DNA from: Eledone cirrhosa
Lineage: Eukaryota
Reading direction: 5' to 3'
DNA: 64,000 bases
Assembly: GCA_964016885.1 (NCBI GenBank)
Contig: OZ024743.1
Location: 73,966,001 to 74,030,000, forward strand
Position 1 is the first letter of the stretch. Each line of letters starts with the position of its first letter. The notes beneath the pieces were generated by a model that saw nothing but the letters and a program-made list of their open reading frames with translations, was not told the DNA's origin and searched no databases. Positions 22,627 through 64,000 of the stretch are shown in pieces. Position numbers and translations under genes: made by a program.

Positions 22627-23318
22627 CATACATACATATATACATACATATATACACACATACATAAAAACAGAATCAAACACACACATACCCCCATTCT
22701 ATTGCTAGCAGGTATACTCACATATCCAATGACTCCATGATTTATCACTCTGTATAACCAATACAATGAAATTTATCCGAAACTTTATTAAGGAAATCCT
22801 GCCATAAACAAAGTAGGTATGGCGCCTTCTGTGACTACCCACACAACGGTTTTTAATGTGTAACACGCAGTCACTCATTCAGAAGTGTTCACGTACACAC
22901 ACATCTGTAGTAGTTATATATTAAACTGTAATGTGTAAATTTATAATTTTGAAACAGTACAGTGTCAAAACAATTAGGTACCTGGATTAAAATGGCGAGA
23001 TTCACATTAAACTCTGTTGCACAAAAATTACATCGATGAAGATTATTTAATCAGATCACTTCATTAAATATATACTCTTTTTGTATGAGATTTTTTATCA
23101 ACATTTCTTTTTAATTCTACACCCTAAGAACTCTGCTAATTCACCGTCATTGAATACCTGTACAATGTATGATAAATAAGACGTAATTTGAATACAATAC
23201 ATATATAGTATATTCGGCAATATACTGTATTTTTAATTTAAAACATTTAGAAGACCATTCGCTATGAGTTTTAAAGTAGTGACTATGTCACTTACTTATT
23301 CTCGGCAAAAACAACAGA

Positions 23319-23368
23319 GAGCGGCCGACAGTCTGTTTCTCGCTTGTGAACCTTTATCAAGACCACTC
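23319..23368 (-). ncRNA. HHR with U3-A8 core (TTGATAA), long stem I, degraded stem II
   Basis: gagtggtc-TTGATAA-..-GAAA-cagactg-TC-ggccgctc; stem I extends attctcggcaaa/tttgccgagaat. Confidence 0.65.
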
Positions 23369-23635
23369 AGTTGCCTTTGCCGAGAATTATAGGGGATGGA
23401 TTCTTATAGAATTCCAGCAATAATCGGGAGCTGATTAAACAGAGCGATTGCCAGCCCAGCAAAAATTAGGTATTAGTATTGCTGCTCTGAAATAGCGATG
23501 TATACATGAATGTATGTATATTATATTTGGCAATATACCGTATATTTAATTAAAATCATTTAGAAGACTATACGCTATTAGTTTTAAAGTAGTGACTATG
23601 TCACTTACTTCTTTTTGGCGAAAGAAGGGAGAGAC

Positions 23636-23675
23636 GCTGACAGTCTGTTTCACGCTGGTTGGCGTTCATCAGAGC
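23636..23675 (-). ncRNA. Minimal HHR, canonical core, tandem sibling of 23319-23368
   Basis: gct-CTGATGA-acgc(caacca)gcgt-GAAA-cagactg-TC-agc; flanks 23210-23320 and 23524-23635 are homologous. Confidence 0.8.
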
Positions 23676-23677
23676 TA

Positions 23678-23721
<44 letters not shown>

Positions 23722-39546: not shown

Positions 39547-39901
39547 AATGATATTAAATAAATGGAAACTATATTTATAAAACTATATTTCAAGAGTACC
39601 AAAATTTGGTACGCTATCATACCGTTAAGATATATTCTCCTTGGTTATATCAAAATTTATAAAACACACTTCGTATTTTATCTGATGATAGCGTACCAAA
39701 ATGTTGGTACCCTTGAAATATATATAATAGAATAAATATGGTTTTATAAATATAGTTTCCATTTATTTATAGTCCATTTTATTTATAGTCCAAAATTTAT
39801 TTTCCATTGTATATTATAGTCCAGAAAACTAGTAGACTGCTCTGAATCAGTTATAAACATTTATATTTATTGAATTACCAACAAATTGAATATCCCTTCT
39901 G

Positions 39902-39905
<4 letters not shown>
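39547..39905 (+). mobile_element. Solo pLTR with short inverted left arm; HHR at 39674-39734
   Basis: Same family as 260-588; tattttat-CTGATGA..GAAA-tatata-TA-atagaata. Confidence 0.85.
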
Positions 39906-39974
<69 letters not shown>

Positions 39975-39979
<5 letters not shown>

Positions 39980-41068
39980 GAAGAGAGAAGAAACATTTAG
40001 ATATAATTAGTAATAAAATGTATCATACCTAAACTGCTCCTAGATTCCTCGACTACGTAGTTTCGTGGCATAAACAAAAACAATACATCATAAAGATATA
40101 GAGTCCTTGCGAGGTCTGCCGACTTATCAAGAGGATACCTCATTTTACTAGTCTCAAGAACGCGTCTATACGACGTGAGAAAGAATCCCAAAAGGCGGAG
40201 GGGGAGATAGTCACGCGATATAACGGTCGAGAAACAGAGCTAAGCCTCTTATAACCCCGAAGAAAATACCACGGAGGCGGAGGGGGTATTTATATCTAAA
40301 TGTTTCTTCTCTCTTCATAATGTATTTTTAACTCTGATACTGGTTCAATCTAGTTCAACCGGATTGGTCTGTCCCAGTCATTCATTGAGCAACATCGGTG
40401 AAGTTGGCACCCTTAACTCACGGTTGGGTGCGGATGCATTCATGTATATGTGTGTCCCCGCATGTATCTGTGTGTTTCTAAATATATTGTTAATAACTCC
40501 CTCTGGTCGAGCAATCTTTGAAGTGTGGGGACTGCTGGAAAGCTTCCATTACTCATACTTCTCGCCTCCTTCACCACCTCTTCTACGGCTTCGATATAAA
40601 TACCCCCTCCGCCTCCGTGGTATTTTCTTCGGGGTTATAAGAGGCTTAGCTCTGTTTCTCGACCGTTATATCGCGTGACTATCTCCCCCTCCGCCTTTTG
40701 GGATTCTTTCTCACGTCGTATAGACGCGTTCTTGAGACTAGTAAAATGAGGTATCCTCTTGATAAGTCGGCAGACCTCGCAAGGACTCTATATCTTTATG
40801 ATGTATTGTTTTTGTTTATGCCACGAAACTACGTAGTCGAGGAATCTAGGAGCAGTTTAGGTATGATACATTTTATTACTAATTATATCTAAATGTTTCT
40901 TCTCTCTTCATAATGTATTTTTAACTCTGATACTGGTTCAGTCTAGTTCAACCGGATTGGTCTGTCCCAGTCATTCATTGAGCAACATCGGTGAAGTTGG
41001 CACCCTTAACTCACGGTTGGGTGCGCATGCATTCATGTATATGTGTGTGTCCGCATGTATCTGTGTGT

Positions 41069-41072
<4 letters not shown>
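39975..41072. mobile_element. Retrozyme-like element with ~320-bp inverted arms and duplicated tail; U3-A8 HHRs at 40046-40135 (minus) and 40754-40843 (plus)
   Basis: tcctc-TTGATAA-gtcggca..tgccac-GAAA-ctacgtag-TC-gagga in both arms; mirror ORFs 39997-40191 and 40698-40892 identical. Confidence 0.88.
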
Positions 41073-41166
<94 letters not shown>

Positions 41167-45012: not shown

Positions 45013-45510
45013 TCAGTCCGGAGCCTTGTAGTTATGCAATAGGTATTTGGCGACATGTGGACAACGTGTGAACAATTCATTTCTCATGTTTAGGCAATCA
45101 CTATTGCGTAATCTCTTTAGAATAGTTATTCGTTCGTCAATACATAAGCCACACGTCGGATTTCCCCTTGCGTATGGCTTGGATTTAGTGATGGCTTTCC
45201 ATTGAATGGAGTAGTCTATACTTGAGTCCTTGAGGGACCATACGTGGCTCTCGAGTTTCGTGGATGAACGTCTGTCCGGGTACCTGAAGGTAGACTGGTG
45301 GTTCAGGAAACGTTCCTTAAATCGGCCCTCCGCCATGCCCACATAGGATTTGACCTCCTGTGGTTCGTTTGGTCGGTTGGAAGTGACCACAGCATCATAA
45401 ATTACAGCTGGTGTGTTGCATTGCTGTTGAAGGGGACAAGCTCTAGGCTTACGGCAAGAGCACCCTGGTGGGGTGTTGCTCCTAGGGCTGCTGGTGGTGT
45501 GGGCCTTCAT
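45013..45510 (-). pseudogene. PLE GIY-YIG endonuclease domain
   Basis: CSCRKPRACPLQQQC..VIY..YVGMAEGRFKERFLNH..CGLC..E..LNMRNEL..CPH. Confidence 0.9.
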
Positions 45511-45707
45511 GTTCTTTGCGCAGGAGTATCCTAGTTTAACTCTGTGTCGGTTGAAGATGGAGCGGTATTCATTAAGTGTCTATCTAAGAGGGCTAGACAT
45601 TTTTTTCGTACATTGGTTTTAACGTTGAGTGAGAAGGGAAGAGAGAAATCACTACCTTGATTAAATCTTAACCATCTACCATGTCAGGGTTTGTCATGTA
45701 TCATTTT

Positions 45708-50975: not shown

Positions 50976-52699
50976 GTTGGAAATTGAGAACAGAACACAA
51001 CCCTTCGTGCCCAGGAAACCGAAGATCAATATGAAGGATCACAAGAGGAATTTTGAAAATGACCTGCCAGTTAGATTGATCGCACCATCAAAATCGGACC
51101 TGGGCAAATTAAGCAAAAACATTCTTGACAGGGTGATACAGCAAATTAATAACTTGGATTGTGTATCTAACCTGAGCTTGTGGAAGGGAACTGGAGAGGT
51201 TGTTGAGTGGTTTAGGCAAATTAAATATAACAATAATAATAGGTTTATTCAACTTGATATAGCTAACTATTATTCTTCTATTACCCCTAGTCTACTAAAT
51301 AAGGCACTAAATTACGCATTCAAACATACTGACCTAACTAGCAAAGAAATGCATATTATATTATCGGCTACGAAAACTTTGATAGAATTTAATGACAAAT
51401 TATGGACCAGAGCAGATAGAGATAGCAATTTTGACATAACTATGGGATCTTCCGACTCAGCTCAGGTAACTGACCTTGTGGGCTTATTTTTAATCAATTC
51501 GCTACATAGGAAAATACCTGGTACTACCGGAGGTTTATATAGGGATGACATGCTTTTACTTATTAATAATAATAACCCTGAACTAAATAGAAAATGTAAA
51601 CAAATTACAAAATTTTTTAATTACTTTAACCTTAAAATAGAAATTGAGAACAACCATAGAATAGTCAATTTCCTAGATATAACATTAAATCTCAACACAT
51701 GTCTCCACTATCCTTTTCATAAGTTGAATGAAAACTTAAACTATGTCAACTTTAACTCTAACCACCCCAGATCTGTCAAAAACACTATAGTAAACTCTGT
51801 TCAAAAACGTATCTCTAGGATCTCGTCGAATAGAAAGATTTTCGACGAAAAGGCCCAATACTATAATGAAGCATTAGCTAGGGCAGGATATGCTGATAAG
51901 ATTGTGTACATAGATAATGATAGACAAACTAAACAAAGTAACAACTTTTTTAATTACGGCAACAACATTAACAACTATAATAGAAAGCATTACAATAATT
52001 CCAAAGGCCAAAAAAGAAATAGAACTAGGAACATAATTTGGTTTGCCCCCCCCTTTCTCACTAAACATTAAAACCCACATCGCTAAATTATTTTTCAAAG
52101 CTCTTGATAATCGCTTCCCTAGAACACATAGGTATCACTCAATTTTCAATAGGCATACAATTAAATTAACCTACTCATCCACCAAAAATTTAGCACAAAA
52201 TATTAATAGAATAAATAATAGGAACTTAAAACCTAGTGATAATAGCATAAATAATATACAAGTTAACAAATGTAACTGTAGAGATAGATCTAAATGTCCG
52301 TTAAATAACAACTGCTTAGTTAAAAATATAGTATACAATTGTAATGTTAATACTGACTCTAATTCTTTTAACTACGTCGGTTCCACATCGACGGAATTTA
52401 AACTTCGCTATAATAACCACAAGAATTCTTTCACAGATCCAAGTAAAAAATCTTCAACGGCACTATCAGGCGTACTCTGGCAACTTAAGCTAGATAACGT
52501 TAGATATTCGACGGCTTGGAATATAGTCTCAAGGGGGATTCCTTTTAATTCATCCTCTGAGACATGTGACCTCTGCGCAGAGGAGATATTCTTTATACTA
52601 AAATCTAAAAATTCCCTTAATCTACGGACAAATTTATTCAGTTGTTGCAAACATAGATTAAACTCAACGTTTAAATATAAATTTAAATTTAAAATGTAG
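50976..52699 (+). pseudogene. PLE reverse transcriptase + GIY-YIG, one +1 frameshift in C8 run at ~52046-52053
   Basis: KDHK..RLIAPSKS, QLDIANYYSSI, FDITMGS, GLYRDD, VNFLDITL, SNHP, IIWFAPPF, CNCRDRSKCPLNNNC, IVY..YVG..R, CDLC..E, CKH; first ~33 aa of the listed ORF come from the inverted arm. Confidence 0.93.
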
Positions 52700-63534: not shown

Positions 63535-64000
63535 TTATGTAATATTCTGCTTGTAGTGGGAAAAAAGGGTTTTAGTTCTGTGACGGCAGAATAATGTTCG
63601 TTCAATTCTGTTATTCAGCAGTTTCTTCTTGTGTGTGATTATGTAATAAATCTCAAGATTACACAATTTGCAGAAATTTTGGCTCCTGGAAAAGCTTTGG
63701 GTTTTAGCTAATTTTTCCCATTTTAGGGTAAACTTTTGATTGCTATCCCTGAGCGTCCAAGCTTTTTCTGCTAAAGTTGTTACATTTCTTTGGCTCTGGT
63801 GTTTTATTGAGTAAGAATGCCTATACAATCGAGATTTAAACGATGTTGCCGTTGATCCCACGTAATACCACTCGTTGCCTCCGGATTTAATGGTACACTT
63901 ATAAATAATATTTTTTTCCAGGCAGTTATTGCCGAGGGGGCAGTTGTCAGGATAGGTGCAGTTACAGTTGTGTACGTTGGGTTTTCTCTGGAGTAGTATT
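63535..64000 (-). CDS. PLE GIY-YIG endonuclease domain, open to window edge
   Basis: CNCTYPDNCPLGNNCLEKNIIYKC..YYVGSTATSFKSRLYRH..CKLCNLE..LNNRIE..CRH. Confidence 0.88.
   Translation of the reverse strand, partial: ILLQRKPNVHNCNCTYPDNCPLGNNCLEKNIIYKCTIKSGGNEWYYVGSTATSFKSRLYRHSYSIKHQSQRNVTTLAEKAWTLRDSNQKFTLKWEKLAKTQSFSRSQNFCKLCNLEIYYIITHKKKLLNNRIERTLFCRHRTKTLFSHYKQNIT

What the first reader, a model, noticed from the sequence alone, without database searches (positions are those of the whole stretch)
39975..41072. Young fold-back retrozyme whose both arms carry a U3-A8 hammerhead
Seen: near-identical inverted arms with tcctc-TTGATAA..GAAA-ctacgtag-TC-gagga, perfect stem I, palindromic stem III, ~60-nt stem II, and a ~190-bp tail segment present twice (40290-40480, 40885-41072). 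The variant recurs in unrelated families (37846, 23319, degenerate at ~54830). Inference: U3-A8 is an established state in several families here and would be missed by CUGANGA searches.
Basis: partly seen in the sequence, partly recalled or inferred. Interest (0 to 1): 0.72.

Follow-up and report, generated by a model that had tools for sequence, protein, structure and literature searches.

The report
Penelope-copied retrozyme with known variant hammerhead
This is one copy of a young non-coding repeat found thousands of times in this animal genome; it carries an already published variant of a predicted self-cutting RNA motif, and its mirror-image arms end at two different fixed sites, likely because Penelope-type jumping-gene enzymes copied one RNA from both sides of a DNA break.

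Summary
Observation confirmed: the arms are identical over 314 nt, both carry a type I hammerhead fold with a U3-A8 core, and a 190-nt segment occurs twice. The locus is not a designed fold-back. It is a truncated insertion of a ~593-nt tandem unit into (TA)n. Genome-wide, 5,981 of 5,993 family cores read TTGATAA and none CTGATGA. The three other window sites belong to separate U3-A8 families. U3-A8 is published (PMC3088659; ~1,300 Penelope-linked motifs in Schistosoma, PMC4209133), so the headline is not new. More interesting: 3' ends fall at two fixed sites ~160 nt apart, and 43 of 44 independent inverted insertions pair one of each, none two of the same. This is the Penelope 'tail at one end only' signature; an intact, young Penelope-like family here does the same (3 of 3). 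Best model: a Penelope enzyme primes both break ends on one RNA, probably a circle. Cleavage, expression, circles and the partner enzyme are not shown. This scan noted the same family and rule before at other loci. New member of a known kind.

The parts
39904..39975 (.). left (TA)n target microsatellite
39976..40296 (-). inverted arm (unit positions ~114-434); outer 3' end at fixed site 1 (unit ~434-439)
   Evidence: 314/314 identical to the direct arm; end class
40046..40135 (-). type I hammerhead, U3-A8 core (core starts 40130; predicted cut after 40051)
40290..40296 (.). 7-nt microhomology at the head-to-head junction of the two arms
40290..40479 (+).
40480..41072 (+). one full ~593-nt non-coding unit; folds well (z -5.3 linear, -4.9 as circle)
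40754..40843 (+). type I hammerhead: stem I 5 bp, core TTGATAA 40759-65, 59-nt stem II, palindromic stem III, predicted cut after 40838
40914..40918 (+). fixed 3' end site 1 (inferred reverse-transcription start), read through in the direct arm
   Evidence: loose end at 40918 in independent contigs
40919..41072 (+). Penelope-type tail (~155-165 nt) between site 1 and site 2; direct arm ends at site 2
41073..41155 (.). right (TA)n target microsatellite

Best explanation
The locus is one 5'-truncated, two-armed insertion of a non-coding ~593-nt tandem unit with a U3-A8 hammerhead motif that is predicted to self-cleave, and it was likely written into a (TA)n tract by the reverse transcriptase and endonuclease of a Penelope-like element acting in trans. 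Shown: the unit, its ~6,000 hammerhead copies, two fixed 3' ends, (TA)n targets, the one-of-each pairing of ends in inverted copies, and covariation of the hammerhead stems. Inferred: tandem source arrays are transcribed; hammerheads cut, probably as dimers through the palindromic stem III, and monomers are circularised; the endonuclease cuts both strands of (TA)n; one DNA end primes at site 1 and the other at site 2 of the same RNA; each cDNA runs upstream, often past one unit length; the two cDNA ends join at short microhomology and give head-to-head arms. This copy has one hammerhead per strand and is probably a dead end.
For: Family: 5,993 cores, 12 within one mismatch of the C3-G8 form, 0 exact. 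Ends: in 55 regions taken in order from the first 60 Mb of contig C1, 26 of 27 inverted insertions pair site 1 with site 2 (one is a duplicated segment counted twice; one exception ends at unit 193); 18 of 18 in the other 37 regions; P about 2e-7 for 26/27 at 0.5. Single-arm copies in the ordered set use site 1/site 2/other 16/13/1. Genome-wide forward-strand counts of site 1-(TA)n and site 2-(TA)n are 1,258 and 1,319. Junction overlap of 2 nt or more in 13 of 27 resolvable junctions vs 15% at random. Units within a locus agree at subfamily sites (32 discordant of 1,387), and variants seen in no other sampled locus are fixed across all units, e.g. 8 of 8 in L182. Variants fixed within arrays show 19 A>G vs 12 T>C (P=0.008); unit-specific ones do not (19 vs 29). 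Hammerhead: an older relative keeps U3 and A8 in 31 of 32 rows while position 7 takes all four bases; stems covary (119 double-change cells vs 55 shuffled; the central stem III dinucleotide stays self-complementary in 40 of 40). Penelope context: a young family with intact 760-aa frames ends at two fixed sites 110 nt apart and pairs one of each in 3 of 3 inverted copies with both ends found. A 938-aa RT/GIY-YIG frame is flanked by two repeats with U3-A8 hammerheads. Literature: PMC8557442, PMC11167929, PMC4209133.
Against: No autonomous partner with homology to the unit was found: none among 50 GIY-YIG loci, none with the 760-aa family's pLTR, and no shared upstream sequence among single-arm copies that points to a source ORF. 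No cleavage, expression or circle data. 5' ends are not enriched at the cut site (7 of 139 vs 6.1 expected), which fits a circle but equally an uncut multimer. In PMC11167929 hammerhead mutants did not affect insertion in vitro; in the 2026 preprint 8 of 9 retrozyme dimers did not cleave. The predicted circular fold does not form the active hammerhead. The A>G contrast between the two variant classes is only P=0.07. 17 of 44 junctions were not resolved cleanly. Part of alignment A1 was selected by a pattern that fixes the core and outer stem III, and relatedness inflates covariation.
Confidence: 0.62

Rival explanations
1. Same Penelope-driven double priming, but the template is an uncut linear multimer transcribed from a source array; the hammerhead is a passenger or acts at another step.
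For: No 5'-end excess at the cut site. Hammerhead mutants do not change insertion in vitro. Minimal Penelope hammerheads cleave poorly.
Against: Variants fixed across up to 8 units and both arms need a single-unit template at some step. Variants shared between loci avoid the core and stems except distal stem II and one CpG. Covariation across subfamilies.
Confidence: 0.25
2. The inverted arm arises by fold-back self-priming of one strand (the antisense self-priming model for Penelope elements, PMC3846280) rather than by two priming events.
For: Head-to-head geometry is the published pattern. Five junctions are nearly symmetric (L013, L028, L176, L179, L186).
Against: Most junctions join unrelated unit positions, and the second arm ends at the other fixed site, which fold-back alone does not explain.
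Confidence: 0.08
3. A DNA-level satellite or fold-back element spread by unequal crossover and repair, with no RNA step; the hammerhead is incidental.
For: Tandem arrays with homogeneous units.
Against: Thousands of dispersed short insertions with fixed 3' ends, scattered 5' ends and (TA)n targets; strand-biased A>G; covariation.
Confidence: 0.05

Closest known systems
Metazoan non-LTR retrozymes (PMC7229834, passages read; Li, Clavereau and Pollet preprint 10.64898/2026.07.22.740005, parts 1-3 of 5 read)
   Same: Non-coding tandem units, each with one type I hammerhead; GC 43%; structured; thousands of dispersed monomers and short arrays; proposed to be non-autonomous Penelope derivatives.
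   Different: Unit of 593 nt (170-400 nt in PMC7229834, 51-972 in the preprint); U3-A8 core and a 59-nt stem II. Two-armed insertions with fixed paired ends are not described in the parts read. Circles and cleavage are not shown here.
U3-A8 hammerheads of Schistosoma Cercyon Penelope-like elements (PMC4209133, parts 1-2 of 4 read) and natural U3-A8 variants (PMC3088659, one passage read)
   Same: Same core covariation, short stem I, large stem II, palindromic stem III region, opposite-strand pairs 100-700 bp apart.
   Different: Here the motif sits in a coding-free tandem unit, with a 10-nt palindromic stem III and a longer stem II.
Endonuclease-containing Penelope-like elements (PMC8557442 and PMC3846280, passages read; PMC11167929, parts 1-2 of 4 read)
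   Same: 5' truncation, partial tandems, inverted 5' copy, tail at one end only, (TA)n targets, two internal reverse-transcription start sites, both strands cut and extended.
   Different: No ORF; tail ~160 nt rather than 30-40 nt; no homologous autonomous partner found.
L1 twin priming (recalled, not read)
   Same: Two primers at one break give an inverted 5' part joined at microhomology.
   Different: Here both priming sites are fixed and distinct, and the arms overlap freely instead of meeting at one template point.

Membership tests
Type I hammerhead ribozyme | Conserved core with a 3-8 pair, G12 A13 A14, A15.1-U16.1 and H17 | tested here: met
   U3-A8, GAAA, GUC; the variant is published as natural
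Type I hammerhead ribozyme | Three stems supported by covariation | tested here: met
   (86.5% of cells paired; slid controls 32-47%); caveats of relatedness and pattern selection
Type I hammerhead ribozyme | Match to an Rfam hammerhead model | tested here: not met
   0 hits at gathering thresholds; the E-value mode was not run
Type I hammerhead ribozyme | Self-cleavage | not testable with these tools
   needs an in vitro assay
Non-LTR retrozyme | Tandem non-coding units, each with a type I hammerhead | tested here: met
   up to 5 units per arm; only short ORFs in the element
Non-LTR retrozyme | At least two same-strand hammerheads at this locus | tested here: not met
   one per strand; met by other family loci
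Non-LTR retrozyme | Expressed as linear and circular monomer RNA | not testable with these tools
   no run on record as RNA was available to lay
Penelope-like element (non-autonomous) | Fixed 3' ends with a tail at one end, inverted 5' copy, 5' truncation | tested here: met
Penelope-like element (non-autonomous) | AT-rich or (TA)n target | tested here: met
   3' flanks
Penelope-like element (non-autonomous) | Homology to the pLTR of an autonomous partner | tested here: inconclusive
   none found; only a small part of the genome's Penelope loci was examined
Penelope-like element (autonomous) | RT plus GIY-YIG ORF | tested here: not met
   unit has no such ORF
Penelope-like element | Target-site duplication | not tested
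   not readable inside (TA)n tracts

The most novel reading that the evidence does not exclude
Penelope integration is an obligatorily asymmetric double-priming reaction: one protein complex, perhaps the predicted dimer, holds a single circular RNA and starts reverse transcription from each cut DNA end at a different dedicated site, rolling round the circle. This would explain the tail, the inverted copy and the partial tandems with one rule.
Probability: 0.4. Interest if true: 0.68.

Novelty: new member of a known kind. Interest (0 to 1): 0.36.

Why it matters
The U3-A8 core itself is known, but it means descriptor and Rfam searches undercount hammerheads in this genome by thousands. The useful part is mechanistic: a young, short, abundant element records that the two Penelope reverse-transcription start sites are used as a strict pair, one per DNA end. 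That turns the unexplained 'tail at one end only' into a testable rule, and the genome holds intact candidate enzymes. The scan has already noted this at other loci, so this locus adds confirmation rather than discovery.

Tried and rejected
Rfam scan: no hit. Loose core pattern: below chance. Relatives with a short stem II: only 3 deletion copies. Partner search: 5' flanks of single-arm copies, neighbours of fetched loci, 30 + 20 of 150 scored GIY-YIG loci, and the young 760-aa family gave no homology to the unit. Pfam did not recognise the 760-aa protein, so its Penelope/Hydra-like label rests on motifs read by eye and on insertion anatomy, with no tree. A 6.1-kb repeat holding the 23319 family had no ORF of 200 aa in the one region listed. 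Linear cleaved monomer as template: no 5'-end excess. Sequencing runs: no RNA holder listed; four contig sets only confirmed the ends. First microhomology count failed on subfamily mismatches and was redone. L152 looked like a site 1/site 1 pair but is an older diverged two-armed copy plus a separate insertion. The Lunse et al. paper on dimeric Penelope hammerheads is not held; only its title was seen. No supplements were read; supplements of PMC4209133 and PMC8557442 may hold related motifs or end data. Searches for the paired-end rule in print listed no paper that states it in the passages read; subscription papers were not searched.

Full report
Observation. Between two (TA)n tracts lie an inverted arm (39976-40296, minus) and a direct arm (40290-41072). 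The shared 314 nt are identical. Both carry TCCTC-TTGATAA-59 nt-GAAA-CTACGTAG-TC-GAGGA, a type I hammerhead with U3-A8 in place of C3-G8 and a predicted cut after 40838 and 40051. The monomer stem III hairpin is not stable alone, while two copies pair at -14.3 kcal/mol, as expected for dimer-acting hammerheads. Rfam reports nothing.

What the element is. The window is part of a 3.0-Gb animal genome; earlier AI notes call it octopus-like, which I did not check. Related loci are tandem arrays of a 591-595-nt unit with up to five units per arm. The window copy is one full unit (40480-41072), a partial upstream unit (40290-40479, the segment seen twice) and an inverted piece. The unit has no long ORF and folds well (z -5.3). 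The core motif occurs 5,993 times; 7 copies have U3-G8, 5 have C3-A8, none C3-G8.

Is the hammerhead under selection? Variants shared by two or more of 90 loci occur at 111 unit positions; within the hammerhead they fall only in distal stem II and at one CpG. An older relative found by homology (about 60% identity) keeps U3 and A8 in 31 of 32 rows while position 7 varies freely. On 40 aligned motifs from several subfamilies, 86.5% of cells pair and 119 show double changes against 55 in shuffles; the stem III palindrome is kept through compensatory change. Part of that set was picked by a pattern fixing the core and outer stem III, and relatedness inflates the score. Cleavage is untested.

Other window sites. 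The 37846, 23319 and 54830 sites belong to three further repeat families whose majority core is TTGATAA. In two loci the 37846 type lies directly behind a decayed GIY-YIG-type C-terminus, so it is a Penelope pLTR remnant. Another Penelope element has a 938-aa frame (GIY-YIG above Pfam's cut-off, RT just below it) between two repeats with U3-A8 hammerheads. U3-A8 is thus common in Penelope-linked repeats here. It is also published: natural covariation in PMC3088659 (one passage), and about 1,300 U3-A8 motifs plus opposite-strand pairs 100-700 bp apart in Schistosoma Penelope elements in PMC4209133 (parts 1-2 of 4).

Insertion anatomy. I fetched the 55 regions covering the first 100 listed cores on contig C1 and added 37 other regions. 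3' ends fall at unit ~439 (site 1) or ~600 (site 2) and run into (TA)n; 5' ends are scattered. Among inverted insertions, 26 of 27 in the ordered set and 18 of 18 in the rest pair site 1 with site 2; one duplicated segment is counted twice, so 43 of 44 are independent; the exception pairs site 1 with a non-standard end; none pairs a site with itself. The two ends are about equally frequent genome-wide (1,258 vs 1,319 on the forward strand; the reverse count for site 2 is inflated by overlapping matches). Independent contigs show the same loose ends. Junctions carry short overlaps (2 nt or more in 13 of 27 resolvable cases vs 15% expected; 17 of 44 unresolved); the window's is 7 nt. Penelope elements are described with 5' truncation, an inverted 5' copy, (TA)n targets and a tail often at one end only (PMC8557442, passages). 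A purified Penelope protein cuts and extends both strands, starts at two internal sites that bound the tail, and is predicted to be a dimer (PMC11167929, parts 1-2 of 4). A young family in this genome with intact 760-aa frames has two ends 110 nt apart and pairs one of each in 3 of 3 inverted copies where both ends were found, out of 16 regions fetched. Its pLTR shows no homology to the unit, so it is a candidate partner only.

Template. Arms run past the cut site and up to five units, and 5' ends are not enriched there (7 of 139 vs 6.1), so the template is not a linear cut monomer. Units within a locus agree at diagnostic sites (32 discordant of 1,387), and 40 variants seen in no other sampled locus are fixed in all overlapping units of their array (11 of them one deletion), against 171 unit-specific ones. 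This favours repeated copying of one unit, i.e. a circle, but homogeneous source arrays could give the same picture. Array-fixed variants lean to A>G on the sense strand (19 vs 12 T>C, P=0.008), unit-specific ones do not; the direct contrast is P=0.07. This is a weak hint of an edited RNA stage.

Verdict. The element works like a non-autonomous Penelope-like element and fits the genomic definition of a non-LTR retrozyme family (PMC7229834, passages; preprint 10.64898/2026.07.22.740005, parts 1-3 of 5); expression, circles and cleavage could not be tested. This copy has one hammerhead per strand and read-through RNA would form a 314-bp duplex, so it is probably inert (inference). The variant core is known. 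The strict pairing of ends goes beyond what I read in print, but the scan has recorded it for this family and others in this genome, which I treat as leads and not as support. New member of a known kind; interest 0.36.

Noticed in passing
window 23230-23690 (-): Two neighbouring related units carry different core pairs: U3-A8 at ~23360 and C3-G8 at ~23675, with a similar stem III. This suggests a core swap within one lineage (read).
   Followed up: partly
window 396, 3879, 39683, 45715, 46037: Abundant AT-rich repeats with canonical C3-G8 hammerheads and TATATA-type stem III; the copy at 39560-39860 lies just left of the finding.
   Followed up: no
window 57871 (+): Relative of the 37846 family with a mismatched C3-A8 core (CTGAGAA).
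   Followed up: no
window 45046-45579, 51733-52669, 63550-63966: Decayed Penelope-like coding remnants similar to the 760-aa family.
   Followed up: no
L373:2961-5240 (-), L372, L380: Young Penelope-like family with intact 760-aa frames, 150 scored copies at 95-100% identity, no Pfam RT or GIY-YIG hit; its pLTR has a C3-G8 hammerhead-like motif with a ~100-nt stem II read by eye, and a 110-nt tail.
   Followed up: partly
L320:2300-7500 (-): Penelope element with a 938-aa frame between two pLTRs carrying a small U3-A8 hammerhead (TTGAAAA, stem III CCGG).
   Followed up: partly
L035:5280-5586 (-), L210-L239, L290-L319: Older subfamilies of the same lineage with U3-A8, free position 7 and a homologous site 1 end.
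   Followed up: yes
L025:4100-4700, L031, L167, L039: A Penelope family whose pLTR has no CUGANGA-type core found by my scan.
   Followed up: no
window 40290-40479 vs 40883-41072: The tandem overlap differs at 4 of 190 positions while the inverted arms differ at 0 of 314; chance or conversion between arms.
   Followed up: no
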